Below, in pieces: positions 2,332 through 25,795 of a DNA stretch of 34,838 nucleotides; positions within the stretch are counted from its first letter, which is position 1, and each line of letters opens with the position of its first letter. Source of the DNA: Pseudopedobacter sp. (GTDB taxonomy: Bacteria; Bacteroidota; Bacteroidia; Sphingobacteriales; Sphingobacteriaceae); contig JACMNZ010000098.1 of assembly GCA_014378285.1 (NCBI GenBank), positions 1-34,838 of the forward strand, given 5' to 3'. The notes beneath the pieces were generated by a model. That model saw nothing but the letters and a program-made list of their open reading frames with translations. It was not told the origin of the DNA and did not search any database. Made by a program: the position numbers and the translations under genes.

Positions 2332-5300
2332 ATGATGAAAAAAAATGTACTACAGGATTTTTTCCAAAAATTATTTTTCCGGCGGAGGCTCGTTCTTGTT
2401 TTATTAATTATTCCATTAATAGCCAACACAGTTACTGCTCAAACAATAAGTGTTTCGGGTGTTGTCAAAGATGAACAAGCTTTCCCTTTACCCGGTGTTG
2501 CAGTGTCTATTAAAGGCACAACCGGCGGCGCAGTTACTAACCAAAACGGTGAGTATAAATTAAACGTATCACCAACTGCAACACTTGTATTTAATTACTT
2601 GGGCTTTACTTCACAAGAAGTTGCTGTTAGCAATAGAACAAGTATTATGATAACCATGAGGGAGGATATTAGCAAACTGGACGAGGTTATTGTTGTGGGA
2701 TATGGAATACAGACTAAAAGAGAAATTGCAGGAGCTATAAGTTCTATTAGCGCAAAAACAATTGAAGAAAGGGTTCCTGTTTCAATTTTTGATGTTTTTC
2801 AAGGTGCAGCTGCTGGGGTCCGTGTGGCTAGTGATTCTGGTGCGCCGGGTGAAGAATCTTCCATTAATATACGAGGGGTTTCTTCTGTGTCCGAAGCTGG
2901 GGGTGTGCCTTTATATGTAGTTGATGGTATAATAGTGGACAATATTAATGGGATTAGTCCAAACGATATTCAGTCTATTGAGATTTTGAAAGACGCAGCT
3001 TCTGCAGCCATCTATGGAGCTCGTTCTGCAAATGGTGTTATTTTAATTTCAACAAAAAGAGGTGATGAAGGAAAGCCAAAAATTAACTTTGGTTACACAA
3101 ATAGTTATAGCAACTTGGCACACAAACTTCCTCAAGCTAATCGGTTAGTTAGAGAGGTTTATGATCAATCTACGCTCCCAACTCGATTTGGATTATATCC
3201 AGAACGTAATGATTCTACTGCTTATAACCGAAATAATGATTTTGATTACCAAGACTTAATTACAAAAACAGGCATAAGAAGCCAGTATGATTTAAATATC
3301 AGTGGAGGTAGTAAAAATCTTACATACTACACAGGTGTGCAATATTTAAACAATTCGGGCATCATACTGTCATCTGAAGAAAAAAGAGTTACTTTCAGAA
3401 CAAATGTCGATTATAAACCCAATCCTAAAACTCTTTTAGCTACTCGTTTAACATTTGGTTATACAGATGCGAATTTAATCAATGACGGAGAGAGTTTGTC
3501 TCAAGCGCTTCAACGCCCAGCTTTTCAGGCCCTATATCTGCCCGACGGTACTCCAATTTTTAATAATGGGGGACGTAGACATCCAATAGAGACAACAAGA
3601 TTAAGACAAGATAGAAGAGGGAGATATAATGGAGTAATTGGTCAAATTTTCGAATATGATCTTTCAAAAGCTATTCGTTTCCATGTTGACGGTTCGGCCA
3701 CGTTAGATTTTCGAAATAATAGACAATTTATTTCTGGTTTTCTAACCAATGCTCCTTCATTTGGCGCTGAAAGTATTGATAGGGTTTCCAGACTACAGTT
3801 TAACTCTTATGTTAATCTTAAAAAGACATTTAGTAAAGTCCATAATTTCACAGGGCAATTAGGTACATCGTATGATGGTTCTAATATGCGGTCCTTATCA
3901 GTTAGAGGAACAAATTTTGTAACAGAATCAGTTAATACATTAAACGCTATAAGCTTATTAAATCCAGCAGGAACAGGCTCAGATGGCTCTACTAGCGCTA
4001 TATTAGGTTTTTTTGCAAGAGCAGGTTATAACTACAAACAGCGGTACATTTTTAACGCAGTTATAAGAAGAGATGGTTCATCTAAATTTGGTGCAGATAA
4101 TCGCTTCGGTAACTTCCCTGCGTTTTCATCGGCCTGGAGGTTCACTGATGAGAAATTTATGGGCTTTGTTAAAAAAATATTAACTGATGGTAAGTTAAGA
4201 GCTACTTGGGGCATTCAAGGATCTGAGGGGAATTTGGGGAATTTTGCATCTAGAAACTTATTAGTTTTTGGAAGTACCTTTTATAATGGTGTTAGTGGAG
4301 TAATTACTAATCCTTTATTAGGTAATTCAAATTTGAAATGGGAAGAGCAAACACAATCTGATGTAGGTTTGGATTTACAGTTTTGGGGTGGTAGATTGTC
4401 ATTAGAAGCCTCTTATTATCAAAGGATTACAAAAGATTTAATTTCAAACAGTGCTTTTGAATTGCCTGCTGAAGTGGGAAGAACAAACAATGTTTTTTTA
4501 AATGCAGGAACCATTAGAAACAGAGGGGTAGAGCTTCAATTATCTGGTTTTCCTATCAGAAATACTTCAAAAAATATTAGTTTGAATACCAATTTGTTCT
4601 TAGGTTTTAATAGAAATAATATTACAGATTTACCAGGAGACGAAATAATAAGGAACAACCTATATATTGTAAGAGAAGGTCAGGAAGTTGGAAGGTTTTT
4701 TGGATATAGAAATTTAGGAATATATGCTTATGATGAATCTAATGCTTATACAGATAATTATACAACCAGATTAATACCTCAATTTCAAAGAGACCAAAAC
4801 GGAAATGTTGTTATCGGTAATAATTTAAAACCAGTATTTTTAGGTTATACTTTACCCAATGGAACACCTTATTCCGGCAACGTTAACAGGTTAACCACAT
4901 CAGGTGCTACTGCAAAAGCAGGTGACGTGATTTGGGAAAATTTACCAGATGCAAATGGTAATCTTAATGGTGATATCGGTATTGAGGACAGACAAATTTT
5001 AGGTTCAGGTCTACCTAAATTACAAGTTAGTTTAAATAACACTTTTACCTACAAAAGATTTACAGTTTCTGCATTTGTGTACGGAAGCTTTGGTAATAAA
5101 GTTTATAATAGTTTAGCTAGATCAGGTGCACAATTTAGCTCAGTAAACACTAGTCCTGATCCCTATGTCATATCAAATCTTTGGAAATACCCTGGTCAAA
5201 TTACCGATGTATACAGTAGAAACGGAGCATTAAATAATTCGAGACCAGGAAATAGCTTTTTCCTGGAAGACGGCTCTTTTATTCGCCTGCAAACAGTACG

Positions 5301-5511
5301 TTTGGGTTATCAAATCCCAGACAAGTATAGTAAAAAAGTATACATCAGTAATTTATCAATATTTGCGTTCAGTAATAATCTAGCTACTTGGACTAAATAT
5401 TCAGGATTTGATCCAGAAGTAGGTCAAAGAAATGTTTTAGAACCCGGAAATGATAATGGAAGGTTTCCAAGAAGAAGAGAATTTGGTTTTGGACTTAATG
5501 CTTCATTTTAA
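2332..5511 (+). CDS. susC: SusC/RagA family TonB-dependent outer-membrane transporter
   Basis: Signal peptide, carboxypeptidase-regulatory-like domain, LDEVIVVGYG, plug motif PLYVVDG..DIQSIEILKDAASAAIYGARSANGVILISTKRG, RRDGSSKFG, FLEDGSFIRLQTVRLGY, C-terminal Phe. It has no N-terminal STN domain. Confidence 0.97.
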   Translation: MMKKNVLQDFFQKLFFRRRLVLVLLIIPLIANTVTAQTISVSGVVKDEQAFPLPGVAVSIKGTTGGAVTNQNGEYKLNVSPTATLVFNYLGFTSQEVAVSNRTSIMITMREDISKLDEVIVVGYGIQTKREIAGAISSISAKTIEERVPVSIFDVFQGAAAGVRVASDSGAPGEESSINIRGVSSVSEAGGVPLYVVDGIIVDNINGISPNDIQSIEILKDAASAAIYGARSANGVILISTKRGDEGKPKINFGYTNSYSNLAHKLPQANRLVREVYDQSTLPTRFGLYPERNDSTAYNRNNDFDYQDLITKTGIRSQYDLNISGGSKNLTYYTGVQYLNNSGIILSSEEKRVTFRTNVDYKPNPKTLLATRLTFGYTDANLINDGESLSQALQRPAFQALYLPDGTPIFNNGGRRHPIETTRLRQDRRGRYNGVIGQIFEYDLSKAIRFHVDGSATLDFRNNRQFISGFLTNAPSFGAESIDRVSRLQFNSYVNLKKTFSKVHNFTGQLGTSYDGSNMRSLSVRGTNFVTESVNTLNAISLLNPAGTGSDGSTSAILGFFARAGYNYKQRYIFNAVIRRDGSSKFGADNRFGNFPAFSSAWRFTDEKFMGFVKKILTDGKLRATWGIQGSEGNLGNFASRNLLVFGSTFYNGVSGVITNPLLGNSNLKWEEQTQSDVGLDLQFWGGRLSLEASYYQRITKDLISNSAFELPAEVGRTNNVFLNAGTIRNRGVELQLSGFPIRNTSKNISLNTNLFLGFNRNNITDLPGDEIIRNNLYIVREGQEVGRFFGYRNLGIYAYDESNAYTDNYTTRLIPQFQRDQNGNVVIGNNLKPVFLGYTLPNGTPYSGNVNRLTTSGATAKAGDVIWENLPDANGNLNGDIGIEDRQILGSGLPKLQVSLNNTFTYKRFTVSAFVYGSFGNKVYNSLARSGAQFSSVNTSPDPYVISNLWKYPGQITDVYSRNGALNNSRPGNSFFLEDGSFIRLQTVRLGYQIPDKYSKKVYISNLSIFAFSNNLATWTKYSGFDPEVGQRNVLEPGNDNGRFPRRREFGFGLNASF

Positions 5512-5520: not shown

Positions 5521-7086
5521 ATGAAAAAGAATATATATGTATTTGTGATACTTGCATTTTTCCTTGCAGGAGGCATAGCAAGCTGTAGTTTAATTGATAA
5601 AGATCCAGTATCTGAAATCGCTCCTGATAATTTTTTTAAGAATCGTAAAGATGCCGATGCTTTTATGGCGGGTATTTATAATTCTTTACAAGAAACTTTA
5701 CGTAGCAATTATTTTGATTGGGGCGAAGTTAGGTCGGATAACGTTCAAAATGCTGGAACTGGAACCGCTCAGGAAAAAGTGATAAATAATGTTCTAGCCG
5801 CTAATGATAATGACCTAAATGCGATTACGGATTGGAGTAATCTTTACCGGACAATTTCATTATGTAATTTTGCAATTGAAAAATTTCCGGATTTGATAGA
5901 GAGGAATGTTGATGCAAGCGAAGCTCAATACAGAGATCAACTAGGACAAGCATATGCACTTAGAGGGCTACTATATTTTTATGCCTTAAGGGTTTGGGGA
6001 GGTACTCCAATTGTAAATGATGTTATTGTTAATGTTAATCAACGGTTAAGTTTTCCGAGAGCAACTGTAGCACAAATGAAAATTCAGATTTTAGGTGACA
6101 TAGATAATGCAACTGCAATAATTGGTAACAGTACAACAAAAAAATTTTATATCCAAAGAGGTGGTGTATTTGCATTAAAAACTGATGTGCATATGTGGTT
6201 TCAAGAATATCCTGAAGCTATACAGGCTTCAAACAATTTAACAGGTTACAGTTACATAACAAATCCATCACAATGGAAACAAATCTTTACTGTACCTGAA
6301 GGTTCAAATGAAACTATTTTTAATATGTTTTGGAATTCAGTTGAAGCTGGTAACAGAGGCGTTGCGGTATGTCAAAAATTAGGAGCTTTTGGTAATACTA
6401 GCCAGTATAGAATTGCGCCTAAGGTTGTACAGCCCTATTACAATAGATTTAATACGGGAACTACAAAAAAATCAGATGCTCGTTTATGGCTTTCTATAGA
6501 TACCGTTCTGTACCCAACGTTAGACCTTTTTGCAACTGCTGCTTCAAACACTATTCAGTATGGTAAGTTTATGGATATTAGCCCAATTGATGGTCGATTT
6601 GCATATAGTACGCAGCAGGAGTGTAGTGTTAAAGTGCCTATATATCGATTTGCTGACGTGATGTTGTTAAGAGCAGAAGCCTTGGCCCGGACATATAGTT
6701 TTCAACAAGCCTTAGATATTGTTAATGCAATAAGAAGTAGAGTGGGTTATAATGTTAAAGCTGTATTAGCAGATTATACCGGAACGCAAGAACAAAAAGC
6801 AATAGCTATTCAAAGAACCGTTCTACAAGAGCGCCAATTAGAGTTAGTTGGAGAAGGCAAAAGATGGTTTGACTTATGTAGAATTGGAAGAACTTACGAT
6901 TATACCTTAAATGGTTATGACTTTTTAAGAGAAGTAATGAACCCAATTTTAACTGCTAGGGGAGCAGATGCTGTAGCCTATAATAGTGATTTAAATATGG
7001 GCAGAATTTTGTATCCTATAAACTCTGATGTAATTAATGCGAACCCGCTCTTAAGAGGTAAGCAAAACCCTCCATATTCTGAGTAA
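5521..7086 (+). CDS. susD: SusD/RagB family glycan-binding lipoprotein
   Basis: Lipobox IASC, AYALRGLLYFYALRVWGGTP, PIYRFADVMLLRAEA, ERQLELVGEGKRWFDL, YPI..QNPPY. It lies directly after susC. Confidence 0.96.
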   Translation: MKKNIYVFVILAFFLAGGIASCSLIDKDPVSEIAPDNFFKNRKDADAFMAGIYNSLQETLRSNYFDWGEVRSDNVQNAGTGTAQEKVINNVLAANDNDLNAITDWSNLYRTISLCNFAIEKFPDLIERNVDASEAQYRDQLGQAYALRGLLYFYALRVWGGTPIVNDVIVNVNQRLSFPRATVAQMKIQILGDIDNATAIIGNSTTKKFYIQRGGVFALKTDVHMWFQEYPEAIQASNNLTGYSYITNPSQWKQIFTVPEGSNETIFNMFWNSVEAGNRGVAVCQKLGAFGNTSQYRIAPKVVQPYYNRFNTGTTKKSDARLWLSIDTVLYPTLDLFATAASNTIQYGKFMDISPIDGRFAYSTQQECSVKVPIYRFADVMLLRAEALARTYSFQQALDIVNAIRSRVGYNVKAVLADYTGTQEQKAIAIQRTVLQERQLELVGEGKRWFDLCRIGRTYDYTLNGYDFLREVMNPILTARGADAVAYNSDLNMGRILYPINSDVINANPLLRGKQNPPYSE

Positions 7087-7105: not shown

Positions 7106-7798
7106 ATGATGAAATCGAAAAATATATTTGTTGTTGCTTTAGCAGTTATTACTGTGATTTTGACAGCATGCGAAAAATTACCATTACAAAAAACAAAGAA
7201 GTATGAAACCTCTTTTTTTCAAAATAACCTAAATAAATCAGTTTTAGATTTTATGGAATCTCGTACTGATATATTTACTGGGATGTTAGATGCTATAGAT
7301 TATGTAGATGAAGATCCTGCATTTAATGATGTAAAAAAAGCATTCCAATCAGATGGGAATACGTTTCTGCTATTGGCAGATCAAGCAACAATCGCTTTAC
7401 CTTCAACAGTAAGTTATTTTGGTGTTAACCTGGTTGATGATGATAATAACCCGGTAACACCTATGACTGCCGCAACATCTTGGAGACAATACCCAAGAGA
7501 GCAAATTGCTAACCTATTAAGATATCATATTGTGAAAGGAAAAAGGGATTTTCCGAACTTAACATCCACGGCTAGATGGTTTGATACCTTTGCAATTAGT
7601 GCTACAAATGACTCAGCGAAAGTCAGAATATTTATGACTAATGATAGGGATGGTGGTATACGTATAAATGATTATTTGGGAGCACCCGCAGTATCATTAC
7701 CAAGAACACCAAATTTATATGCTACAAACGGAGTTGTACATGTATTAAATGTGTTTTTAAGACAACCAACAAGATTAGCAATTACAAATAACCGTTAA
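7106..7798 (+). CDS. Fasciclin (FAS1) domain lipoprotein
   Basis: Lipobox LTAC. FAS1-type segments GNTFLLLAD (H1-like), LLRYHIVKG (YH motif) and NLYATNGVVHVLN (H2). Confidence 0.85.
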   Translation: MMKSKNIFVVALAVITVILTACEKLPLQKTKKYETSFFQNNLNKSVLDFMESRTDIFTGMLDAIDYVDEDPAFNDVKKAFQSDGNTFLLLADQATIALPSTVSYFGVNLVDDDNNPVTPMTAATSWRQYPREQIANLLRYHIVKGKRDFPNLTSTARWFDTFAISATNDSAKVRIFMTNDRDGGIRINDYLGAPAVSLPRTPNLYATNGVVHVLNVFLRQPTRLAITNNR

Positions 7799-7810: not shown

Positions 7811-8923
7811 ATGAAGATATTTAAATTATTTATGTATGTAGTTGCTTCTGGTATTGTTTTTACCAGTTGCAAAAAAGATCCAGAAATTGAATTGGTTTCC
7901 CTTAATAAAATAGGTGAAGAACATTACTTTGGAGAGAAAGTATTAATGTGGGCAAGCACTGAAGGCGATAAGAAGGACATGACTTATGAGTGGACTACTA
8001 CAGGTGGTACATTTGAGGGTGCTAGAACGCAAGATCGATTTGAAAATGTATGGATAGCACCAACTCAAGTTGGCCAATTTGATGTAAGTATCACAGCTAA
8101 AAATGGGAAAAGCAGTTCAACAAAAACATCAACTTTGAATGTGACGAGGTACTTTTTTGATCATTTTCAGAGTCCAAATATTTTTGCCGGAAACGGATGG
8201 CCGGGCTGGGCTACAAATAATATCATATTTAGTCAACGTAATAGTGATGACAAACTTACTAGTAGTTTACGCATTTCTCCTTCTAGGGTAAATAACAGTA
8301 ATATTGATGTAAACGTAAGAAAAGTGCTTAATTCTGCAGAGTTAAAAATCCCTTTTTCTGTGCGGGCAAAAATGGGCTTTGATACTTATTTTAAACCTGA
8401 CGCTTCTTTTTGTATTTCACTAACATTTCGCCAACCAAGGGCAAATCCAGAAAGACCATTCATCCGAGAGATAAGATGGGAGGTTTTTCCTTCACCATCC
8501 AATACTACATCTGCAAATTTCCAAATAAGGTATGAAGTTTTTACACCTTCAAAAAATCTAAGTGTATTTAGCACCAATACAGGTGTTTATCCAGCTGCAG
8601 GCCCATTAATAAATCCAATTACAGGTAGAAATAATGCCTTATTTACAATGACCTCCAACGTAGCAAAGAATTTTACTTTTTCAATGGAGGCTGATGAAAC
8701 TTTTGTAACGCATGTTAATGGAGTGGAGTGGTTTAGATCCGCAGGAATCAAAAACTGGTTGACTGCAGCTCGAGCTCAATATCCCGGTTTTGAAGCTCCT
8801 GTTGCAAATGAATTTAGGATTTTAATGCCCGGTAGGGCGGCAAGCACCTTACCAGTTAGCCAATTATTTATGAATAGTGTTTACATTAATAATGATGGAA
8901 CAATTTTAAATAGTCCTATATAA
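7811..8923 (+). CDS. Uncharacterised lipoprotein, probable surface glycan-binding protein (N-terminal PKD/Ig-like module)
   Basis: Lipobox FTSC followed by KKDPE (export-signal-like). TYEWTTTGG..WIAP..GQFDVSITA resembles a PKD/Ig-like beta sandwich. It occupies the SusE/F-like position. Confidence 0.7.
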   Translation: MKIFKLFMYVVASGIVFTSCKKDPEIELVSLNKIGEEHYFGEKVLMWASTEGDKKDMTYEWTTTGGTFEGARTQDRFENVWIAPTQVGQFDVSITAKNGKSSSTKTSTLNVTRYFFDHFQSPNIFAGNGWPGWATNNIIFSQRNSDDKLTSSLRISPSRVNNSNIDVNVRKVLNSAELKIPFSVRAKMGFDTYFKPDASFCISLTFRQPRANPERPFIREIRWEVFPSPSNTTSANFQIRYEVFTPSKNLSVFSTNTGVYPAAGPLINPITGRNNALFTMTSNVAKNFTFSMEADETFVTHVNGVEWFRSAGIKNWLTAARAQYPGFEAPVANEFRILMPGRAASTLPVSQLFMNSVYINNDGTILNSPI

Positions 8924-15657: not shown

Positions 15658-17298
15658 ATGTCAAATATTTATAAAAAACTTTTTTATACGGTAATATTAT
15701 TAACGTTTACACAGCTGGTTTTAGCGCAAAATAATGAAAGGTTTCAAAATCCAATACTTAAAGGCTTTTACCCAGATCCGTCTATTTGCCGTGTTGGCGA
15801 CGATTATTATCTGGTAACTTCTAGTTTTGAGTATTTTCCCGGTGTACCCATTTTTCATAGTAAAGACATGGTGAATTGGCAACAAATAGGACATGTATTA
15901 GACCGTCCGTCTCAATTAAAACTTGATGGTATACATCCCTCTGGTGGCATTTTTGCACCTACTATTCGTTACAATAACGGTACTTTTTACATGATTACTA
16001 CTTTAATTACCAAGCGTAACAATACGGGAACTAATTTTTATGTAACAGCAAAATCGCCCTATGGTCCTTGGTCAGATCCTCATTGGTTAAAAGACGCTCC
16101 AGGTATTGATCCTTCTTTATTTTTTGATGATAATGGCAAGGTTTATTATACAGGGAATAGAACTCCAGCGGATAAGCCTACTGGCTCAAAATATAGGCAA
16201 ATCTGGATTCAAGAATTAGATACAATAAAGAAGCAATTGGTTGGCGAGGTTACAGTTGCCATAGAGGAAGGTGCCTTACATGATGCAGTGGTTGCAGAAT
16301 CACCTCACATGTATAAAAAAGACGGTTATTACTATATCATGTTAGCCGAAGGAGGAACAGGTATTGATCATGCTGTTAATATTTTTAGAAGTAAAAGTCC
16401 GCTTGGACCTTATGAAGGGAATAAGAAAAACCCAATTATTACTCACCGTAATTTAGGAAAACAGTACCCTGTGGCCTGTGTAGGGCATGCAGATTTAGTA
16501 GAAACACAAAATGGAGAGTGGTGGATGGTTTTATTAGGCGTTAGAACTTATGGCGGTTTCCACTATAATTTAGGTAGAGAAACTTTTCTTACTCCCATAA
16601 CTTGGGAAAACGATTGGCCAGTTGTGAATCCAGGAATTGGTAAATTACTTTTAGAAGAAAGAAAACCAAAGTTACCTGCTTTTACCGCAAAGAAGGAAAA
16701 TGCTTTTGATGATTTTAATGCTGATAGCCTTCAATATTATTGGAATTTTTTACGAACACCAAAGAGTGATTTTTGGTCATTAAAAGATAAAAAAGGTTAT
16801 TTATCGTTACAATTACAATCCTATACATTAGTTGATTTAGAAAATCCATCTTTTGTTGGGAGAAGACAACAAGACACTTCTTTTAATGCAGAAACAAAAA
16901 TGATTTTTGAACCCAAAAGCAGCAACGAAAGTGCAGGTTTAGTGGTGATGATGAATAACAACTTCCATTTTAGGTTAGAGAAAGTTTTAGAGAATAATAA
17001 AACTTATATAAAGCTTACAAGAAGACATGCAGGCAAAGAAGAGATAATAGCAACGAAGCCTGTTGATAAGGAAGATATTGTACTAGGTGTTGAGGCAATT
17101 GGTCAAAATTATTCTTTCTATTACAAGAAAAATGATAAAATTATTTTTCTTACTGAAAATATAGATGGGAGAACATTGAGCAGGACAAATACCGGAGGTT
17201 TTACCGGTACTTATGTTGGATTATATGCCAGTTCTAATGGTTTTCCTTCTAAAAATAAGGTACATTTTGATTGGTTAAACTATCAGCAAATAAAATAA
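15658..17298 (+). CDS. GH43 beta-xylosidase/alpha-L-arabinofuranosidase, paralog 3
   Basis: YPDPSI, SSFEYFPG, GIDPSLFFDD, AESPHMYKKDG, GHADLVET, GGFTGTYVGLYA. ATG at 15658 is preferred over the TTG at 15649 because it starts the signal peptide. Confidence 0.95.
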   Translation: MSNIYKKLFYTVILLTFTQLVLAQNNERFQNPILKGFYPDPSICRVGDDYYLVTSSFEYFPGVPIFHSKDMVNWQQIGHVLDRPSQLKLDGIHPSGGIFAPTIRYNNGTFYMITTLITKRNNTGTNFYVTAKSPYGPWSDPHWLKDAPGIDPSLFFDDNGKVYYTGNRTPADKPTGSKYRQIWIQELDTIKKQLVGEVTVAIEEGALHDAVVAESPHMYKKDGYYYIMLAEGGTGIDHAVNIFRSKSPLGPYEGNKKNPIITHRNLGKQYPVACVGHADLVETQNGEWWMVLLGVRTYGGFHYNLGRETFLTPITWENDWPVVNPGIGKLLLEERKPKLPAFTAKKENAFDDFNADSLQYYWNFLRTPKSDFWSLKDKKGYLSLQLQSYTLVDLENPSFVGRRQQDTSFNAETKMIFEPKSSNESAGLVVMMNNNFHFRLEKVLENNKTYIKLTRRHAGKEEIIATKPVDKEDIVLGVEAIGQNYSFYYKKNDKIIFLTENIDGRTLSRTNTGGFTGTYVGLYASSNGFPSKNKVHFDWLNYQQIK

Positions 17299-17323: not shown

Positions 17324-18856
17324 ATGAAACTTAAATTATTAGTTTTTTTAGGCTTAATTTTTTTCCCCTTAACAAGTATTCTTGCTCAGGAAAAGGCACA
17401 AAAACCCAATGTATTATTTATAGCAATTGATGATTTAAAACCTTATTTGAATTTTTATGGGTTTTCAGCTGTAAAATCTCCAAACTTGGATAAGCTGGCC
17501 GAAAGAAGTACTGTTTTTATGAGTAATTATTGCCAACAAGCAGTTTGTGCACCAACCAGAGCTAGCTTATTAACAGGCCTACGTCCGGATAGAACTCAGG
17601 TATGGGACTTAAAAACCTTGATTAGAGATAAAAACCCTGATGTAATCACACTGCCTCAACTTTTTAAACAAAATGGGTATACCACAGCGGCTTTGGGCAA
17701 AGTTTTCGACCAAAGAAGTGTAGATAAAAAACATGATGAGATTTCGTGGACTGAACCTTATAAGGGCAAATATAAATATCCGGTAGCTTACGGCGCACCT
17801 CTTTTAGGCCATTATCAAAATCCCGAAATGAAAAAGAAGTATGCAAATGCAGATGAAAAGGATATGGATGAGGTAAAGGTTTCAACAGAATCTGCAGATG
17901 TGCCCGATGACGCTTATGCAGATGGAGCAATGATAAATGAAGCTATAACGGATCTAAGGAAATATGGAAGTGCTGGAAAACCATTTTTTTTGGCTGTGGG
18001 TATTCGTAAACCTCATTTACCATTTGTGGCGCCAAAAAAATATTGGGATATGTATAGTCGGGATAAAATTGAACTTGCCCCATGGCAAAAACATTCAATT
18101 GATGGCCCTCCAATAGCTTATCATAGTTCTGGTGAGTTAAGAGGTTACGCAGATATTAAAGCATCGGTCAAAGATGATGAACCGTTAAATTTAAGTGTCG
18201 ATAAACAAAAAGAATTGATACATGGCTATTATGCAAGTATCAGTTATGTAGATGCTTTAGTAGGTAAATTGCTTGGTGAATTAAAGTCATCTGGATTAGA
18301 TAAAAACACCATTATCATCCTTTGGGGCGATCATGGATGGCATTTTGGTGATCATAATCTTTGGAATAAACACTCAAATTTCGAACAAGCTACCAGAACA
18401 CCTTTAATAATTTCTATTCCCGGCCAAAAGTCTAAAATAGTTTATCAATCTATTACAGAATTTGTAGATATCTATCCAACTTTGGCAGAACTGGCTAATA
18501 TACAACCCACCCAACAGCTAGATGGTAAAAGCTTAGTTTCGGCTTTAAAAGGCGATCAAAAAGCAATCAAGGATTTTGCCATCAGCCAATATCCAAGGAA
18601 AAACGGAAAAGACAACTTTATGGGTTATGCTTTAAGAACAAAACAATATCGTTTTGTAGAATGGATAAAAGATTTCAGAACCACACAAAAATTTGATCAA
18701 CAAAATGTACATGCAGTAGAATTGTATGATTATGAAAAAGATCCTTTAGAAACAAAAAACTTAGCGAACGACCCTGTTTACAAAAAAATTAAGGAAGATT
18801 TAAGTAGTAAAATGCACCAGTTTTATGCAGAGCAAGAAATAAAATTACGGAAATAA
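17324..18856 (+). CDS. Formylglycine-dependent sulfatase (S1, iduronate-2-sulfatase-like)
   Basis: KPNVLFIAIDDLKP, CQQAVCAPTRASLLTGLRPD, GKVFD, GIRKPHLPF, WGDHGWHFGDH..KHSNFE, ELYDY..DPLE..NLA. Confidence 0.95.
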   Translation: MKLKLLVFLGLIFFPLTSILAQEKAQKPNVLFIAIDDLKPYLNFYGFSAVKSPNLDKLAERSTVFMSNYCQQAVCAPTRASLLTGLRPDRTQVWDLKTLIRDKNPDVITLPQLFKQNGYTTAALGKVFDQRSVDKKHDEISWTEPYKGKYKYPVAYGAPLLGHYQNPEMKKKYANADEKDMDEVKVSTESADVPDDAYADGAMINEAITDLRKYGSAGKPFFLAVGIRKPHLPFVAPKKYWDMYSRDKIELAPWQKHSIDGPPIAYHSSGELRGYADIKASVKDDEPLNLSVDKQKELIHGYYASISYVDALVGKLLGELKSSGLDKNTIIILWGDHGWHFGDHNLWNKHSNFEQATRTPLIISIPGQKSKIVYQSITEFVDIYPTLAELANIQPTQQLDGKSLVSALKGDQKAIKDFAISQYPRKNGKDNFMGYALRTKQYRFVEWIKDFRTTQKFDQQNVHAVELYDYEKDPLETKNLANDPVYKKIKEDLSSKMHQFYAEQEIKLRK

Positions 18857-18929: not shown

Positions 18930-19580
18930 ATGAATAAAGAAATGAGAAAATATATCGGTTTTGCATCAGTAATAGTTTTATTATCATGCATAGCAGCAAC
19001 TTTACAAACTCCTAAAAATGTATTAATTGTTGGAGATTCTATATCTATAGGTTATACACCTTATATTCAAAAAGCATTAACAGGGATAAATATAGCGCAT
19101 AACCCTGGAAACGGAGGATCAACCATTAGAGGTGTTCAAAGTATCGAAAAATGGTTGGGAGACACGGAATGGGATGTTATCGTATTCAATTTTGGATTGC
19201 ATGATATGGTTTTTAAAGATTCTTTAAATAAGTATGATGTTGTGCATGGTAAGGTTAGCGTTCCTTTAGATGATTATCGGAAAAACTTACAAATTATAGT
19301 AGATAAATTGAAAGAAACTACTGCAAATTTAGTTTTTGTAACTACCACTACCGTTCCCGAGAATTCCTCCGGCAGAAAAACAGAATCGCCCGCACAGTAC
19401 AATAAAATAGCTAAAGCGGTAATGAAGAAAAACGGAATAGAAGTGTTAGACCTCTATGAGACTTCTTTGAAAGTTCATCCAGAAAATTCAAAACCTGGTA
19501 ATGTTCATTATTCAGAATTAGGTTATGAATTGCTTGCAAAACCTATCACAGAAAAGATAAAATCAAAGTTAAATAGGTAA
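18930..19580 (+). CDS. SGNH/GDSL hydrolase (probable carbohydrate esterase)
   Basis: Block I VLIVGDSIS, block II NGG, block III FNFGLHD, block V NVHYSELGY. N-terminal signal; ATG 18942 is an alternative start. Confidence 0.9.
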   Translation: MNKEMRKYIGFASVIVLLSCIAATLQTPKNVLIVGDSISIGYTPYIQKALTGINIAHNPGNGGSTIRGVQSIEKWLGDTEWDVIVFNFGLHDMVFKDSLNKYDVVHGKVSVPLDDYRKNLQIIVDKLKETTANLVFVTTTTVPENSSGRKTESPAQYNKIAKAVMKKNGIEVLDLYETSLKVHPENSKPGNVHYSELGYELLAKPITEKIKSKLNR

Positions 19581-19607: not shown

Positions 19608-21137
19608 ATGCAATTAAAAAAAGAGTTTACAGCAATTCGTATAATTATACTTGTGATACTATGCTCATTAAACACATCAGCTGCAATTGCCCAACAATCA
19701 AAGTATTATACAATTAATACCGATGGGTCTTTAATTTACAAACCAGATGAAAAAGGAAATATTATTCCAGATTTTAGTCGGGTAGGTTATCATATGGGAG
19801 ACAGAGAATTGCCAGAAATAAAAGTTGCAAAAAAGGTTTCACCCGCCACTATTGGTAGCAGTCAACAAATTATCCAAAAAGCAATTGATGAAGTTGCTTT
19901 AATGAAGCCAGATAAAAATGGCTTTAGAGGAGCTGTGTTATTAAAAAAAGGAACCTATAAAATTTCAGGAAACCTTACCATTAAAACAAGTGGGATAGTG
20001 TTAAGAGGTGAAGGTAATGATGAAAACGGCACAAAACTAGTTGCTACCGGAAAAAGTAGAAGAACTTTAATACAGGTTTCTGGCGATGGCAACCCGAGAG
20101 AGATTAAAGGAACCAGAACCAAGGTTACAGATGAATATGTGCCAGTTGGACAGTTCTTTGTAAATGTAGAAAAACCAAAAAATTTTAAAGTTGGAGATGA
20201 AATCATCATTTACAGACCAGGAACAACAAATTGGATTCAGGACTTACAAATGGATAAAATTATTGAACGACCCGGAACATTACAATGGCAGGCTAGTGGC
20301 TACAATTTAACCTTCGAAAGAAAAATAACCGCAATTAAAGGCAATCAAATATTTATAAATCAACCTATCATCATGCCTTTAGAAAAAAAATATGGAGGTG
20401 CTGAAGTCTATAAATTTACTTTTAGTGGCAGAATTGAGGAAGTTGGGATAGAGCAAATTTTGTTTGAGTCTGAATATGCAAATGAGACCGACGAAGAGCA
20501 TTCATGGAAAGCCATTGATTTTGATAAAGTTGATAATGGCTGGGTTAGAAATGTAACTTCTAAATACTTCGCTAATTCTTGTGTAAATCTGAGTAAGGAT
20601 GCAAGATATATCACCGTTACAGATTCTAAATGTTTGGATGCAAAATCGATAATTACTGGAGGGAGAAGATATAGTTTTAATGTCAACGGGTCATTTAACC
20701 TGGTAAAAAATTGCGAAACTACAGAAGGAAGGCATGATTATGTGAGCGGTGCAAAAACCATGGGACCAAATGTTTTTTACAATTGTAAAGCTTCAAACAC
20801 ACATGCAGATATAGGCCCGCACCATCGTTGGTCTGCAGGTGCTTTGTATGATAATATTGTCACAGATGGCGAAATAAATATTCAGGATAGAGGTAATTAT
20901 GGTACCGGGCATGGATGGGTGGGTACAACACAAGTAATATGGAATTGTACAGTTAAAAGAGCTGCTGTTCAAACTCCGTGGGTATCCGGTAAGAATTATT
21001 GTATCGGTTTGGTGGGCGAGAAATATAAAGGCCGTTTAGAAGGTAAACCCGATGGAGAATGGGAAAGTTTAGGAAAACACGTTATGCCTGTTTCATTGTA
21101 TTTAAATCAATTAAAAGCTAGGAAAGAAAAAGATTAG
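19608..21137 (+). CDS. Uncharacterised pectate-lyase-like right-handed beta-helix protein (putative polysaccharide lyase/hydrolase)
   Basis: Signal peptide, IPDFSRVGY, IQKAIDEV, GAVLLKKGTY, GIVLRGEG (beta-helix N-cap pattern), Asn/Cys-stacked repeats (NGWVRNVT, NLVKNC, NVFYNC) and the polar cluster GRHDY, GPHHRWS, GHGW. Confidence 0.72.
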   Translation: MQLKKEFTAIRIIILVILCSLNTSAAIAQQSKYYTINTDGSLIYKPDEKGNIIPDFSRVGYHMGDRELPEIKVAKKVSPATIGSSQQIIQKAIDEVALMKPDKNGFRGAVLLKKGTYKISGNLTIKTSGIVLRGEGNDENGTKLVATGKSRRTLIQVSGDGNPREIKGTRTKVTDEYVPVGQFFVNVEKPKNFKVGDEIIIYRPGTTNWIQDLQMDKIIERPGTLQWQASGYNLTFERKITAIKGNQIFINQPIIMPLEKKYGGAEVYKFTFSGRIEEVGIEQILFESEYANETDEEHSWKAIDFDKVDNGWVRNVTSKYFANSCVNLSKDARYITVTDSKCLDAKSIITGGRRYSFNVNGSFNLVKNCETTEGRHDYVSGAKTMGPNVFYNCKASNTHADIGPHHRWSAGALYDNIVTDGEINIQDRGNYGTGHGWVGTTQVIWNCTVKRAAVQTPWVSGKNYCIGLVGEKYKGRLEGKPDGEWESLGKHVMPVSLYLNQLKARKEKD

Positions 21138-21223: not shown

Positions 21224-23599
21224 ATGAATGCTTTTTTAATTAAAAAAATCGTAATTGGTGCAGTAGCAATTGTGGTATTTCAATTTAAGGCACCAGCACA
21301 ACAAAAAGTTGAAATGTTTCCGTTAACGGCTGTCACGTTAGAAGATAAACTCTTTTTAAAAGCTCAACAAAATAACTTAAGATATATCTTGGCTCTGGAA
21401 CCCGACCGATTGCTGGCACCTTTCTTAAAAGAAGCAGGTATAAAACCTAAAGCGCCTATTTATGGGAATTGGGAAACTAGTGGTTTGGGTGGCCAAACGG
21501 GAGGTCATTATCTTTCTGCACTATCAATGATGTATGCCGCAACAAAAAATCCAGAACTCAAAAAACGTTTGGATTATATGATTGATGAACTTGCTATTTG
21601 TCAGAAAAAAAACGGCAATGGATACGTTGGAGGTGTGCCTGATGGAATGTTAATGTGGGCTGATTTGGCAGGTGGTAAAATTGAAGTTTCTAATTTTTCG
21701 CTAAATAAAAAATGGGTACCATGGTATAATATGCATAAACTTTACGCTGGTTTAATAGATACTTGGCTGATTACCGGCAATTTAAAATCAAAACAAATTT
21801 TAATAGAGCTTGCGGATTGGTGTATTTCAATAACGTCAAAATTAAGCGACAAACAAATGCAGGAAATGTTACGCTGCGAACAAGGTGGGATGAACGAGGT
21901 TTTAGCTGAGGTAGCATCTATAACAGGAGATGAAAAATACATGCAACTGGCTAAGCGTTTTTCTCATCAATTTATTTTGGAACCCCTGTTAGAACAAAAA
22001 GATGAACTTACAGGCTTGCATGCAAATACACAAATCCCCAAAGTTATAGGCTTTATGCGCATAGGAGAACTTACCAATAGTTTGGCTTGGAAAAACGCAG
22101 CCGCTTTTTTTTGGGAAACAGTAGTGACTACCAGAAGCTTATCAATAGGAGGAAATAGTGTGAAAGAACATTTCAATAAAATAGATGATTTTTCGCCACT
22201 AATGCACCATAAAGAAGGGCCTGAAACCTGCAATAGTTATAATATGCTTAAACTAAGCAAACACCTATTTCTGGAACATCCACAAAGTAAATTTATAGAC
22301 TATTATGAAAAAACCACCTATAACCACATATTATCTTCTCAACATCCAGCGCATGGCGGCTTGGTATATTTAACACCGCTTAGGGCGCAACATTATAGAG
22401 TTTACTCTAGCCCAGGGTTAAATTTTTGGTGTTGTGTTGGTACGGGGATTGAAAATCATGCAAAATATGGTGAAATGATTTATGCCCATCAAAAAGATGA
22501 TTTATATGTAAACCTGTTTATTGCGTCAACACTAACTTGGGAAGAAAAAGGACTTACATTGAAACAGGAGACTAAATTTCCTTTTGAAGAAAAGTCCCGT
22601 TTAACGCTTGAAATCAAAAAGCCAAAAACTTTTACCATTAATATTAGAAAACCAAAGTGGCTAAAATCAGATGCAACACAAATATGGATTAATGATAAGC
22701 CATTAAATGTAAAAACTAATAGCAATGGTTATTACCCAATTAAAAGAAGGTGGGCGGCAAAAGATGAAATTAGATTTTCATTACCTATGGAAACAAAAGT
22801 AGAGCCTTTGCCAGACGGATCTCCATGGGTTTCTTTTATGTATGGCCCAATCGTACTGGCTGCAGCCACTTCTACAGCGAACTTAAATGGGCTAATTGCT
22901 GCCGACGTTAAACAGGCAAATATTGCTAAAGGGCCACTCTTCTCGGTTTCTGACGCTCCGGTAATTATTGCAGATTCAAATTCTTTTAGCCCTGATTTAG
23001 AGATAATTAATAAAGATGAATTAACCTTTGGAATTTCTAAGCACATCTATCAGGAGAAGTACAAAAAGCTGAAATTAATTCCATTCTTTAAGTTACACGA
23101 CGCCCGGTATATGGTTTATTGGCCCGTAAGTAAATTAGAAAACGTTGAAGATAATCGTAAAAAATGGTTGGCAGATGAACGCACTTTATTACCTCTTGAA
23201 ACATCTACCATTGATTTTGTGGCGACAGGTGAACAACAATCAGAGGTTGAACACGATTTTGATGCCGAACAAACCGAAGATGGATTTTTAAAAGACAGGC
23301 GCTGGAGAAATACTACATCATGGTTTAGTTATAAACTTAAAAATGATGATAAAGACGCTAAAAAGCTAAGAATAACGCATTATGGAGCAGAAAAAGGAGA
23401 ATATACCATTTTTATAAATGATAATTTTTTTCAGAAAGTAGTGCTGAGTGGAACCAATGGCGATAAGTTTATTGACGACGAGTACATTTTACCACTAGAG
23501 TTGGTTAAAAATTATGACGGTAAACCCTTAACAATAAAGCTTGTTGCGGATAAAAACTCTTCTACTGCTAAAATATTTTATATCAGATTATTAAAATAA
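21224..23599 (+). CDS. Beta-L-arabinofuranosidase, GH146 (GH127-related)
   Basis: YGNWE..GL.G..GGHYLSA, WVPWYNMHK, EQGGMNE, GLHANTQIPK, ETCNSYNMLKL, FWCCVGTG.ENH (Zn/Cys catalytic centre), GEQQSE.EH C-terminal domain. Confidence 0.92.
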   Translation: MNAFLIKKIVIGAVAIVVFQFKAPAQQKVEMFPLTAVTLEDKLFLKAQQNNLRYILALEPDRLLAPFLKEAGIKPKAPIYGNWETSGLGGQTGGHYLSALSMMYAATKNPELKKRLDYMIDELAICQKKNGNGYVGGVPDGMLMWADLAGGKIEVSNFSLNKKWVPWYNMHKLYAGLIDTWLITGNLKSKQILIELADWCISITSKLSDKQMQEMLRCEQGGMNEVLAEVASITGDEKYMQLAKRFSHQFILEPLLEQKDELTGLHANTQIPKVIGFMRIGELTNSLAWKNAAAFFWETVVTTRSLSIGGNSVKEHFNKIDDFSPLMHHKEGPETCNSYNMLKLSKHLFLEHPQSKFIDYYEKTTYNHILSSQHPAHGGLVYLTPLRAQHYRVYSSPGLNFWCCVGTGIENHAKYGEMIYAHQKDDLYVNLFIASTLTWEEKGLTLKQETKFPFEEKSRLTLEIKKPKTFTINIRKPKWLKSDATQIWINDKPLNVKTNSNGYYPIKRRWAAKDEIRFSLPMETKVEPLPDGSPWVSFMYGPIVLAAATSTANLNGLIAADVKQANIAKGPLFSVSDAPVIIADSNSFSPDLEIINKDELTFGISKHIYQEKYKKLKLIPFFKLHDARYMVYWPVSKLENVEDNRKKWLADERTLLPLETSTIDFVATGEQQSEVEHDFDAEQTEDGFLKDRRWRNTTSWFSYKLKNDDKDAKKLRITHYGAEKGEYTIFINDNFFQKVVLSGTNGDKFIDDEYILPLELVKNYDGKPLTIKLVADKNSSTAKIFYIRLLK

Positions 23600-23803: not shown

Positions 23804-25795
23804 ATGAAGTATTTATATAATTACCGCATTTTATTTTTCATAATAAGCCTGTTAAGCTTTAAATCGGCTTTAGCCCAAAACACACCACTATTTACTGTTA
23901 AAGCTAATCAACCAAAAGCCAAAGTTTCCCCAAATATGTGGGGTGTTTTTTTTGAAGATATCAACATGGGTGCAGATGGTGGTCTATATGCAGAAATGGT
24001 AAAAAACCGTTCTTTCGAGTTTTTTGAGCCATTGATGGGTTGGAAAACAGAAGGTAAGGGAATTAAAGAGGGAGATTTTTTAGTGCATAACAGAAAAGCC
24101 ACCAACACCAATAACCCTAGATATTTAAGAGTTAAAGTTATTAATGCAGCAAAGGGAACGGTTGGAATCAACAACGAAGGTTTTAGAGGTATGGGGATTA
24201 AAGAAGGTTTGCAGTATGATTTTTCTATGCTTTATAAACAAGAAACTTCAAACTTAAAAATGCACTTAGAATTGCTGAATAGCAAAGGAGAGATAATTGG
24301 TGAAACAGAAATTAAACCAGCAATAGCCGATGGCAATTGGCATAAACAAGCTGTAAGTTTTAAATCAAACGCTACTGAATTAAAAGGGGGATTTAGAATT
24401 TGGTTTGAAGGAAGTGGACAAATTGATTTAGATATGATTTCTCTTTTTCCAGAAGATACCTGGATGAAACGCCCTGGAGGAATGCGGGCTGATATGGTGC
24501 AGCTTTTAGCGGATATGAAACCTGGTTTTATACGTTTTCCGGGCGGTTGTATTGTAGAAGGTTTTGATTTATCAAACCGTTACCAATGGAAAAAAACTGT
24601 TGGGCCTATAGAAGAACGCCAATTGATTATCAACAGATGGAATACAGAGTTTAACCATCGTCAAACACCAGATTATTTTCAAACTTTTGGCTTAGGATTT
24701 TTTGAGTATTTCCAACTTGCAGAAGATATTGGTGCAGAGGCCTTGCCAATTTTAAATTGTGGCATGGCTTGTCAGTTTAATACTTCTGAGGTAGTCCCGC
24801 TAGAAGATTTGGATGAATACGTACAGGATGCCTTAGATTTAGTAGAGTTTGCCAATGGCGATGTGAATACCAAATGGGGTAAGTTACGTAGTGATATGGG
24901 ACATCCAAAACCATTTAATTTAAAAAAATTGGGGGTTGGAAACGAAAATTGGGGTCCCCAATATGTAGAACGGTTAAAAGTTTTCAATAAGGCTTTGAAA
25001 GCCAAATATCCTGATATTCTATTGGTTTTTAGTTCAGGTGCTAACCCAGATGGACCTAAATTTGACTTATTAGATAGGGAATTAAGAGCTATTAATGCAG
25101 ATATTATTGATGAACATTATTATAGAAGTCCTGAGTGGTTTTTGGAAAACGTTTCACGTTATGATAATTATAGTCGTCAGGGGTCTAAAATTTTTGCGGG
25201 CGAATACGCTGCCCAAAGTGAACGAATAGCTAGTCCAAACAACAAAAATAATTGGAAAACAGCTATCGCAGAAGCCTCTTTTTTAACTGGATTAGAGCGT
25301 AACGCTGATGTAGTAATAATGGCTTCTTATGCACCACTTTTTGCACATGTTGATGCGTGGCAGTGGGCGCCTGATATGATTTGGGTTGATAATTTGCAAG
25401 CTTATGGAACGCCCAACTATCAGGTTCAAAAATTGTATGCTACCAATAAAGGAACTGATGTTGTGCCTGTTTTAAACGGAGAACAAACAATTGCAGGTAA
25501 AGATGGCTATTATGCATCTGCAACTATTGATAAAGTAACTAATGAAGTGATTATAAAAATCTCAAATTATTCGGCGACAGCCAGAGAAGTTGTTTTTAAA
25601 ATTGATGGAGTAAAGAAACTCGCTTCAAAAGGATCAAATACTTATTTATCATCAGATAATTTGGATGATGTTAATTCTATTCAAAATCCTAAAAATGTTA
25701 GCCCAAAAGAAAAGGAAGTTACAGCTAAAGGAAATCAAGTTAAAACTATTTTGGCGCCTTATTCTTTTAATGTGATTAAGTTTAAAATGGGTTAA
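23804..25795 (+). CDS. Alpha-L-arabinofuranosidase, GH51 (with CBM4/9-like insert)
   Basis: GVFFEDIN..ADGGLYAEMVKNRSFE, RFPGGC, GVGNENWG (acid/base Glu), DEHYY, GEYAA (nucleophile Glu), GLERNADVV.MASYAPL. Confidence 0.96.
   Translation: MKYLYNYRILFFIISLLSFKSALAQNTPLFTVKANQPKAKVSPNMWGVFFEDINMGADGGLYAEMVKNRSFEFFEPLMGWKTEGKGIKEGDFLVHNRKATNTNNPRYLRVKVINAAKGTVGINNEGFRGMGIKEGLQYDFSMLYKQETSNLKMHLELLNSKGEIIGETEIKPAIADGNWHKQAVSFKSNATELKGGFRIWFEGSGQIDLDMISLFPEDTWMKRPGGMRADMVQLLADMKPGFIRFPGGCIVEGFDLSNRYQWKKTVGPIEERQLIINRWNTEFNHRQTPDYFQTFGLGFFEYFQLAEDIGAEALPILNCGMACQFNTSEVVPLEDLDEYVQDALDLVEFANGDVNTKWGKLRSDMGHPKPFNLKKLGVGNENWGPQYVERLKVFNKALKAKYPDILLVFSSGANPDGPKFDLLDRELRAINADIIDEHYYRSPEWFLENVSRYDNYSRQGSKIFAGEYAAQSERIASPNNKNNWKTAIAEASFLTGLERNADVVIMASYAPLFAHVDAWQWAPDMIWVDNLQAYGTPNYQVQKLYATNKGTDVVPVLNGEQTIAGKDGYYASATIDKVTNEVIIKISNYSATAREVVFKIDGVKKLASKGSNTYLSSDNLDDVNSIQNPKNVSPKEKEVTAKGNQVKTILAPYSFNVIKFKMG

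What the first reader, a model, noticed from the sequence alone, without database searches (positions are those of the whole stretch)
2332..25795. PUL for a probable sulfated, acylated, arabinose-rich glycan
Seen: three CxPxR sulfatases, three GH43s, GH146/127, GH51, an SGNH esterase and an unclassified beta-helix protein behind one SusC/D pair. No GH10/11 xylanase, GH28 or obvious endo-arabinanase is present in the window. Known: land-plant arabinans and xylans are not sulfated, whereas green algae make sulfated arabinans/xylo-arabinogalactans and sulfated Hyp-arabinosylated wall glycoproteins. Inference: the locus degrades a green-algal sulfated arabinose/xylose polymer. I do not recognise this gene combination as a characterised PUL, so it is the best candidate for an undescribed system here.
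Basis: partly seen in the sequence, partly recalled or inferred. Interest (0 to 1): 0.75.

Follow-up and report, generated by a model that had tools for sequence, protein, structure and literature searches.

The report
Mosaic sulfated-uronan utilization locus, new lyase
A glacier-ice Bacteroidota gene cluster assembled from several movable modules, whose conserved core likely breaks down a sulfated, glucuronic-acid-containing algal or cyanobacterial slime using a predicted lyase from a large unstudied family, rather than a sulfated arabinan.

Summary
The gene list is confirmed: SusC/D, two surface proteins, three CxPxR sulfatases (two S1_7-like, one S1_8-like), three GH43_12-like enzymes, SGNH, a beta-helix protein, GH146 and GH51, with catalytic motifs intact where checked. 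The arabinan reading is weakened. In 7 of 34 same-genus genomes the block sulfatase/GH43/SGNH/beta-helix is conserved, never with GH146 or GH51; 6 of the 7 have a GH88 within 5 kb of the beta-helix gene. In one closed genome the window's modules lie at four separate places. The beta-helix protein (AlphaFold pLDDT 97) is homologous to the PL29/DUF4955 lyase domain, has a conserved His/Arg/Tyr set, and is likely an unclassified polysaccharide lyase, which needs uronic acid. Codium and Cladophora sulfated arabinans are pyranosic and lack uronate, so they fit poorly. The sequence occurs in glacier and ice metagenomes. Best reading: a mosaic PUL for a sulfated, probably acetylated, GlcA-containing heteroglycan with pentose stubs, with GH146 and GH51 as add-ons. 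Substrate untested; no matching characterised PUL found.

The parts
3..551 (+). C-terminal end of a hybrid two-component sensor (HTCS); the rest (1219 aa) is on contig C380; likely regulator of the locus
   Evidence: (141-nt overlap); 55% to the HTCS of a beta-helix/GH29/GH2/PL38/GH88 locus in G003
2332..5511 (+). SusC1 TonB-dependent transporter
   Evidence: TIGR04056 732 bits; in a 15-row clade (SH-aLRT 100, quick tree) of SusC genes mostly from SusC/SusD/fasciclin cassettes
5521..7086 (+). SusD1 lipoprotein
   Evidence: PF07980/PF14322; 65-67% orthologues in 4 of 34 genus genomes, in enzyme-free cassettes
7106..7798 (+). Fasciclin-domain lipoprotein, predicted surface glycan-binding protein
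   Evidence: PF02469, lipobox
7811..8923 (+). PKD-domain lipoprotein, predicted surface glycan-binding protein; hairpin at 8944-8980 follows
   Evidence: PF00801
9119..10594 (+). Sulfatase S1_7-like (CGPSR), core block
   Evidence: best PDB 6HHM E 4e-57; 75-77% orthologues
10666..12318 (+). GH43_12-like (GH43a); in relatives paired with GH146 away from the block
12357..13991 (+). GH43_12-like (GH43b), core block; alpha-L-arabinofuranosidase or beta-xylosidase
   Evidence: best PDB 5Z5D, BoGH43B, BoGH43A
13988..15652 (+). Sulfatase S1_8-like (CAPSR); in 6 of 7 relatives' blocks
   Evidence: best PDB S1_8A-C entries, E 6e-75
15649..17298 (+). GH43_12-like (GH43c), core block
   Evidence: 60% to GH43b
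17324..18856 (+). Sulfatase S1_7-like (CAPTR), core block
   Evidence: best PDB 6HHM E 5e-83, then iduronate-2-sulfatase E 1e-73
18930..19580 (+). SGNH hydrolase, likely O-acetyl esterase, core block
   Evidence: PF13472; only uncharacterised PDB relatives
19608..21137 (+). Right-handed beta-helix protein, predicted polysaccharide lyase of a family related to PL29/DUF4955, core block
21224..23599 (+). GH146 beta-L-arabinofuranosidase-like, accessory module
   Evidence: PF07944; best PDB 5OPJ E 2e-227 versus GH127 entries E 1e-13 to 1e-17
23804..25795 (+). GH51 alpha-L-arabinofuranosidase, accessory module from arabinan/arabinose loci
   Evidence: PF22848/PF06964; MgGH51 E 2e-77
25972..26167 (+). 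Pseudogene relic of the 5' end of a GH2 beta-glucuronidase
   Evidence: D10; E 3e-11; 31.9 bits; next best of 125 intergenic regions 3.7
26174..26348 (+). Pseudogene relic of the middle of a GH88 unsaturated glucuronyl hydrolase, abutting the GH2 relic
   Evidence: E 5e-5; 17.3 + 5.7 bits; next best of 125 regions 1.3
34237..34815 (+). 5' part of a GH2 of the same orthologous group as the relic, in the next (ECF/FecR/SusC2/SusD2) unit, at the contig end; a stop lies 24 nt before the end
   Evidence: 80% to G048 GH2, whose best PDB hit is beta-glucuronidase 6D7J, 1248 bits

Best explanation
This is a mosaic Sus-type utilization locus whose conserved core likely degrades a sulfated, probably O-acetylated, glucuronic-acid-containing heteroglycan with single arabinofuranose or xylose side residues, probably a microalgal or cyanobacterial extracellular polysaccharide of glacier biofilms. 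Shown: gene content, intact motifs, modular conservation, beta-helix fold, the GH2/GH88 relic, glacier/ice occurrence. Inferred pathway: fasciclin, PKD and SusD lipoproteins capture fragments and SusC imports them. No surface endo-enzyme is evident, so the cell would rely on soluble fragments or on enzymes encoded elsewhere. In the periplasm the SGNH would remove acetyl groups, the S1_7 and S1_8 enzymes sulfates (by analogy the endo/exo 2-O-sulfatase pair acting on xylose in ulvan), and the GH43_12 enzymes pentose stubs. The beta-helix enzyme would then cut at 4-linked GlcA by beta-elimination, and GH88 and GH2 would release the unsaturated and saturated uronate. In this lineage the adjacent GH2/GH88 have decayed, so they would act from other copies (GH2 at 34237; a GH88 3' end starts contig C367). 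GH146, GH51 and GH43a are recruited modules that likely widen the locus to alpha- and beta-arabinofuranosyl caps, such as those of algal arabinogalactan-proteins or hydroxyproline arabinosides.
For: Block conserved at 68-86% identity in G015, G020, G024, G041, G043, G048, G049 (7 of 34 genus genomes); GH88 within 5 kb of the beta-helix gene in 6 of 7, and G024/G048 continue with GH2-(PL38)-GH88. Over 37 beta-helix homologue rows, GH88/GH105/PL38 lay within 10 kb in 20 and GH146/GH51 in 0; with at least 9 kb fetched on both sides, 14 of 21 versus 0 of 21 (related genomes, not independent). GH2 and GH88 relics follow GH51 in the same order. Beta-helix: NF058554 (BT3328, PL29) E 1e-12; HHalign to DUF4955/PL29-like proteins probability 100, E 6e-43, 426 columns, and those proteins score 287-492 bits on the PL29 model; conserved H270, R325, R326, Y327, R347, H348, H377, R379, R400, H407 (numbered from 19692, add 28 for the full ORF); best fold match an alginate epimerase/lyase (Z 27.8, rmsd 2.5, 272 aligned). 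A phage beta-helix GlcA lyase uses Tyr/His/Arg (PMC8822698). G049 has the block directly behind a SusC/SusD/fasciclin cassette of the same clade. Distant loci L133 and L145 pair S1_7/S1_8-like genes with GH88 and DUF4955. Charophyte EPS is described as anionic, GlcA-rich and variably sulfated (PMC10762512). Holders are glacier and ice metagenomes.
Against: No activity measured; sulfatase and GH43 subfamilies are polyspecific (S1_7 also covers galactose-4-sulfate and iduronate-2-sulfate). The fold search lists hydrolases nearly as high (polygalacturonase Z 24.0), and acids D267, E268, D349 and D387 are also conserved, so a hydrolase or epimerase is not excluded. The window has no intact GH88, only its relic; Pfam GH88 gave no hit over cut-off in this genome, and PL38, xylose isomerase and KduI were not found in it (77.6% complete; XylA and KduI are in 5 of 5 block-carrying relatives). 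The closest SusC1/D1 orthologues (65-72%) sit in enzyme-free cassettes far from the block (1.5 Mb in G041). The beta-helix family is common in rumen, soil-type and other Bacteroidota loci without sulfatases (sulfatase within 10 kb in only 10 of 37 rows), so it says uronate, not alga. Only 3 of 80 metagenome loci of S1_8 relatives had a GH88 and none had GH43 or this beta-helix (many contigs short).
Confidence: 0.5

Rival explanations
1. The cluster is a patchwork without a single substrate: the transporter cassette, the sulfated-glycan block, the GH43a/GH146 pair and GH51 serve different glycans and were only brought together, and loss of the adjacent GH2/GH88 may mark a decaying uronate route.
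For: In closed genome G041 the orthologues lie at 2.495 Mb (SusC/D cassette), 0.96 Mb (block), 2.434 Mb (GH43a+GH146, by the rhamnose operon) and 1.478 Mb (GH51, arabinan PUL). Hairpin and 195-nt gap after the PKD gene, 204-nt gap before GH51. GH2/GH88 relic.
Against: G049 places the block behind a same-clade SusC/SusD/fasciclin cassette; gaps inside the enzyme run are -4 to 86 nt; split PULs can stay functional (PMC6994673).
Confidence: 0.2
2. The target is a sulfated arabinogalactan-protein or hydroxyproline-arabinoside wall glycoprotein of green algae such as snow algae; the GH43s, GH51 and GH146 strip alpha- and beta-arabinofuranose and the lyase/GH2 deal with GlcA caps. This is the part of the first reader's idea that survives.
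For: Five furanosidase-type genes in one run; an S1_8 is needed for sulfated AGP use in Bacteroides plebeius (PMC8406133); Chlamydomonas-type walls are HRGPs (PMC10762512); furanosic arabinan is linked to HRGP in Codium (PMC7550628); the genome has araABD (C397) and a GH106/GH78/GH145-like/DUF2264 run (C367).
Against: No galactanase or galactosidase family in the locus; GH146/GH51 absent from 7 of 7 relatives' blocks; a separate GH43 PUL exists on C210.
Confidence: 0.15
3. The target is a uronate-free sulfated arabinan or xylo-arabinogalactan of Codium/Cladophora/Chaetomorpha type, with the beta-helix as an endo-hydrolase.
For: Such polymers exist, also in freshwater Cladophora, and carry xylose branches (PMC7550628); hydrolase beta-helices score Z 22-24.
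Against: These backbones are beta-L-arabinopyranose without uronic acid (PMC7550628); no GH27, GH36 or GH110 in the window; uronate enzymes track the block; glacier/ice habitat.
Confidence: 0.07
4. The target is an animal glycosaminoglycan (chondroitin, dermatan or heparan type, e.g. from microfauna).
For: PL29 and GH88 are GAG enzymes (PMC6994673); the S1_7-like genes resemble iduronate-2-sulfatase.
Against: No PL8 or heparinase-type lyase and no hexosaminidase in the window; two to three pentosidase-type GH43s in the core have no clear GAG role; the beta-helix scores 47 bits against a cut-off of 1100 on the BT3328 model.
Confidence: 0.08

Closest known systems
Formosa agariphila ulvan PUL (P18_S1_7, P32_S1_8 xylose-2-sulfate sulfatases; PMC9096561)
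   Same: S1_7-like plus S1_8-like sulfatases with GH43; 6HHM (P18_S1_7) is the best PDB hit of both S1_7-like genes; lyase plus unsaturated-uronate hydrolase logic.
   Different: No rhamnosidase, GH39, GH3 or GH105 in the window; beta-helix instead of the ulvan lyase families (those recalled); GH146/GH51 added; glacier habitat.
Bacteroides thetaiotaomicron chondroitin/dermatan/hyaluronan PUL with PL29 BT3328 and GH88 (PMC6994673)
   Same: Homologous beta-helix domain with shared His positions, sulfatases, GH88 association, HTCS.
   Different: About 25% identity to PL29-like proteins; no spacer or conserved lipobox; no PL8; different sulfatase subfamilies; pentosidases and an esterase instead.
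Bacteroides plebeius PUL13 for sulfated arabinogalactan-protein (BpS1_8; PMC8406133)
   Same: An S1_8 sulfatase in a PUL for an arabinose-bearing sulfated glycan, including Codium AGP.
   Different: That system depends on GH43_24 galactanase, GH145 and GH105; none is in the window, which has two S1_7-like genes and a lyase-like beta-helix.
Canonical Bacteroidota arabinan PUL
   Same: GH51, GH146 and GH43 families; the GH51 is 65% identical to that of the arabinan-type PUL in G041.
   Different: No endo-arabinanase-like GH43; different SusC clade; sulfatases, esterase, beta-helix.

Membership tests
Polysaccharide utilization locus (Sus-like) | Adjacent susC/susD pair with co-located CAZymes and a regulator | tested here: met
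Polysaccharide utilization locus (Sus-like) | Co-induction of all genes by one glycan | not testable with these tools
   no RNA holder listed
Arabinan PUL | Endo-1,5-alpha-arabinanase | tested here: not met
   GH43s score 18-46 bits against cut-offs of 480-750 on endo-arabinanase models; best PDB hits are exo GH43_12-type
Arabinan PUL | GH51 and GH146 stably linked to this SusC/D and enzyme set | tested here: not met
   0 of 7 relatives' blocks; 0 of 37 beta-helix rows
PL29 (BT3328 family) | Score above the curated family cut-off | tested here: not met
   46.9 bits versus 1100 on NF058554; the model includes a ~300-aa spacer, but DUF4955 relatives of the same length reach 287-492 bits
PL29 (BT3328 family) | Homologous catalytic domain | tested here: met
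   HHalign probability 100, E 6e-43, 426 columns to an 8-sequence PL29-like/DUF4955 alignment; BT3328 itself was not in hand
Beta-helix polysaccharide lyase | Right-handed parallel beta-helix fold | tested here: met
   pLDDT 97.2, pTM 0.95; Z 27.8, rmsd 2.5, 272 aligned
Beta-helix polysaccharide lyase | Tyr/His/Lys/Arg base and acid in the groove rather than a carboxylate pair | tested here: inconclusive
Beta-helix polysaccharide lyase | Beta-elimination on a uronate polymer | not testable with these tools
   needs an assay
Ulvan PUL | S1_7/S1_8 sulfatases with GH43 | tested here: met
   by best PDB hits only; SulfAtlas and dbCAN not available
Ulvan PUL | Rhamnosidases and GH105/GH88 inside the locus | tested here: not met
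   none intact in the window; rhamnosidases are on C367, whose link to this contig is unproven
Sulfated AGP PUL (B. plebeius type) | GH43_24 exo-galactanase, GH145, GH105 with the sulfatase | tested here: not met
   absent from the window
Formylglycine (S1) sulfatases | C/S-x-P-x-R motif | tested here: met
   3 of 3

The most novel reading that the evidence does not exclude
The 19608 protein founds a new polysaccharide-lyase family, sister to PL29 and very widespread (3,252 of 7,997 scored candidates at E<=1e-20; 1,528 clusters at E<=1e-30), that cuts GlcA-containing microbial and algal slimes, and this locus is the first handle on how glacier bacteria recycle the sulfated extracellular polysaccharide of ice or snow algae or cryoconite cyanobacteria, caught while swapping its uronate tail for arabinofuranosidases.
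Probability: 0.35. Interest if true: 0.62.

Novelty: new variant of a known kind. Interest (0 to 1): 0.4.

Why it matters
Sulfated-glycan PULs are described mostly from sea and gut; a freshwater-ice example with cultured relatives (named records L035 and L037 carry the same block) can be tested directly and its enzymes could be used to read the structure of poorly known glacier-algal slimes. The beta-helix protein stands for a large family with no Pfam model and no close solved structure, a good candidate for a new lyase family. The locus also shows PUL rearrangement with a visible pseudogene scar, and warns that substrate calls made from one genome's gene list can be driven by recently added genes.

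Tried and rejected
Single-sequence AlphaFold of the beta-helix failed (pLDDT 34) and was replaced by an alignment-based model. Sequence search of PDB found nothing for it alone and only weak hits with the profile. No structure labelled PL29 appeared in the fold searches, so residues could not be mapped on one. No RNA holder listed. The promoter scan was at chance level (70 found, 74 expected). A recalled lead to a B. thetaiotaomicron BT2912-2923 PUL gave no passage and was dropped. C367 (GH88 3' end, GH106, GH78, GH145-like, DUF2264) as the continuation of the window: no sequence overlap and relatives carry that rhamnosidase run elsewhere, so not claimed. The class-wide SusD1 search (0 of 400 other genomes) scored only 3 candidates per genome and is weak. 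The metagenome scan with S1_8 returned 80 loci at 37-54% identity and no further copy of the block. XylA, AraA and KduI are all present in 5 of 5 relatives tested, so they do not separate xylose from arabinose. The primary papers on PL29 and on the B. uniformis beta-glucuronidases could not be read. Ten paper searches showed no study of this gene set; 'sulfated arabinan' had 0 occurrences in the 25 papers listed, and 'DUF4955' 0 in the 15 listed; the library lacks most subscription journals, and PULDB, dbCAN and SulfAtlas could not be queried. Three look-ups in earlier findings returned nothing. The SusC tree is the quick search only.

Full report
Observation. The window is one 34,838-nt contig (C178) of a 2.75-Mb, 77.6%-complete genome. 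Its nearest named relatives are Pedobacter glucosidilyticus, P. puniceum and Pelobium sp. (their placement in one GTDB genus is recalled). An HTCS lies upstream and continues on C380. Contigs from other assemblies bridge the main gene junctions at even depth. Runs holding half or more of the sampled words are 3 of 19 listed, all glacier or ice metagenomes from three studies, one possibly the source.

Subfamilies, by best solved relative only. The sulfatases at 9119 and 17324 match 6HHM best, which is the ulvan endo xylose-2-sulfatase P18_S1_7 (PMC9096561, passages; the same table lists an S1_7 galactose-4-sulfatase and the S1_8 exo xylose-2-sulfatase). The one at 13988 matches entries labelled S1_8A-C. 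GH43b matches 5Z5D beta-xylosidase and BoGH43A/B arabinofuranosidases best, then an entry labelled GH43_12; the other two GH43s are 51-60% identical to it. A characterised GH43_12 removes single arabinose stubs and has little activity on arabinan (10.1101/2020.12.10.419226, passages). The 21224 gene matches 5OPJ (its GH146 label is recalled) and 23804 matches MgGH51. No enzyme has a conserved lipobox (SignalP not run), so all are predicted periplasmic.

The locus is a mosaic. Among 34 other genomes of the genus, 7 carry the block of S1_7-like, GH43, S1_7-like, SGNH and beta-helix genes at 68-86% identity; 6 of the 7 include the S1_8. In none do GH146 or GH51 follow the beta-helix gene. G015, G020, G041 and G043 have a GH88 inside the block; G024 continues GH43-GH2-GH88 and G048 GH2-PL38-like-GH88. 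GH43a and GH146 orthologues form an adjacent pair elsewhere in G015, G020, G041, G043, G048 and G049, next to the rhamnose catabolic genes in the three where the flank was read. GH51 orthologues (11 of 34 genomes) lie in arabinan or arabinose clusters in the four contexts read. The closest SusC1/D1/fasciclin/PKD orthologues (4 of 34) are enzyme-free cassettes with a LacI-like gene. In closed genome G041 these four modules are at 2.495, 0.96, 2.434 and 1.478 Mb. Yet the transporter and the block are not strangers: G049 has the block directly behind a SusC/SusD/fasciclin cassette, and SusC1 falls in one 15-row clade with that SusC and with those of loci carrying beta-helix paralogues, GH88, GH29 or PL38 (quick tree; one row, G015 C12, has no such neighbour in the stretch read).

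Between GH51 and the ECF gene lie a decayed 5' end of a GH2 (about 25972-26167) abutting a decayed middle part of a GH88 (about 26174-26348). A repeat search first showed it; tblastn gave E 3e-11 and 5e-5; profile scores of 31.9 and 17.3 bits were the highest of 125 intergenic regions of the genome, the next being 3.7 and 1.3. The GH2 belongs to the group whose best PDB hit is the beta-glucuronidase 6D7J. So this lineage's locus once ended in GH2-GH88, as in G024. Another copy of this GH2 starts at 34237, and a GH88 3' end opens C367, but their completeness is unknown.

The beta-helix protein. It has no Pfam hit but a weak hit to the BT3328 (PL29) model. With a 143-sequence alignment it folds at pLDDT 97 and matches alginate epimerase/lyase, a viral putative pectin lyase, AlgE4, polygalacturonase and an alginate lyase at Z 27.8-23.5; fold alone does not separate lyase from hydrolase. 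It aligns over 426 columns with DUF4955 proteins that cover the catalytic part of the PL29 model (BT3328 has a ~300-aa N-terminal spacer, PMC6994673, passages). Conserved polar residues are mostly His, Arg and Tyr, with four acids; a phage beta-helix GlcA lyase uses Tyr/His/Arg (PMC8822698, passages). Of 37 homologue rows (35 genes, two split), 20 have GH88, GH105 or PL38 within 10 kb, 15 GH29, 10 a sulfatase and none GH146 or GH51. GH88 acts on lyase products (established). I put lyase at about 75%. The family is large and occurs in rumen Prevotella and many other Bacteroidota, so it marks uronate, not algae.

Substrate. Sulfate, a likely ester, pentose stubs and GlcA together fit an anionic heteroglycan. 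Charophyte EPS is described as branched, rich in fucose, galactose and GlcA and variably sulfated (PMC10762512, passages); that glacier algae include zygnematophytes and Chlamydomonadales is recalled, and I found no structure of their EPS. The absence of fucosidase and galactosidase from the window limits this fit. Codium and Cladophora sulfated arabinans are pyranosic and uronate-free (PMC7550628, passages) and fit poorly. Predicted sulfated xylose-rich and arabinan PULs in marine Flavobacteriia (PMC6298971, passages) and Maribacter arabinogalactan PULs (PMC11036162, passages) have other gene sets. PMC12243196 and 10.64898/2026.10.07.757250 (passages) added nothing on subfamily or residues. 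No supplements were read; PUL tables in them could hold a similar locus.

Verdict. A real, uncharacterised, mosaic PUL. Odds: sulfated GlcA-heteroglycan core with accessory arabinofuranosidases 0.50; no single substrate 0.20; sulfated AGP/HRGP 0.15; GAG 0.08; uronate-free sulfated arabinan 0.07. It is a new variant of a known kind; the most valuable part is the candidate lyase family.

Noticed in passing
window 26689-34838: A second unit, ECF-FecR-SusC2-SusD2-GH2. Its SusC/D orthologues (74-83%) precede the same GH2 in G010 and a PL38-like lyase beside an alginate-type cluster in G043, so it also points to a uronate polymer and may work with the first locus.
   Followed up: partly
window 33620-33920: Transposase-like remnant between SusD2 and GH2 (55% to an insertion that splits a beta-helix gene in G003; IS200/IS605 type by recall); depth doubles there in run X1.
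   Followed up: partly
window ~940-1560: Decayed gene for a secreted protein with an Ig-like/T9SS-type C-terminal region between the HTCS and SusC1; a similar intact gene lies just upstream of the SusC in G049.
   Followed up: partly
window 34813-34815: Stop codon in the GH2 24 nt before the contig end, with homology continuing past it; real nonsense change or end-of-contig error not resolved.
   Followed up: no
L073-L075, L079-L086 (G041, G043, G020, G015): SusC/SusD/fasciclin/PKD cassette with a LacI-like gene and no enzyme, between housekeeping genes: an orphan importer.
   Followed up: partly
L026-L033, L047, L108, L199-L203: Paralogous loci with beta-helix genes, several GH29, GH88, GH3, GH31 and GH95 behind the same SusC clade; could target fucose- and GlcA-containing bacterial or algal EPS such as colanic acid (inference).
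   Followed up: no
L041, L042: Rumen Prevotella loci with the same SusC clade, PL38-like, GH105/88-like, the beta-helix, GH97, GH31 and GH36 and no sulfatase seen.
   Followed up: no
G000:C367:1-10477 (L106): GH88 3' end, GH106, GH78, an unassigned 621-aa protein, GH145-like and DUF2264 genes; same run in G021 and G023.
   Followed up: partly
L133, L145: Distant loci with GH88, GH29, esterases, S1_7-like + S1_8-like pair and a DUF4955 beta-helix: a parallel sulfated uronan design.
   Followed up: partly
G000:C411:2651-3385: A rhodopsin-like gene next to carotenoid and retinal-type genes, judged by eye from the sequence starts.
   Followed up: no
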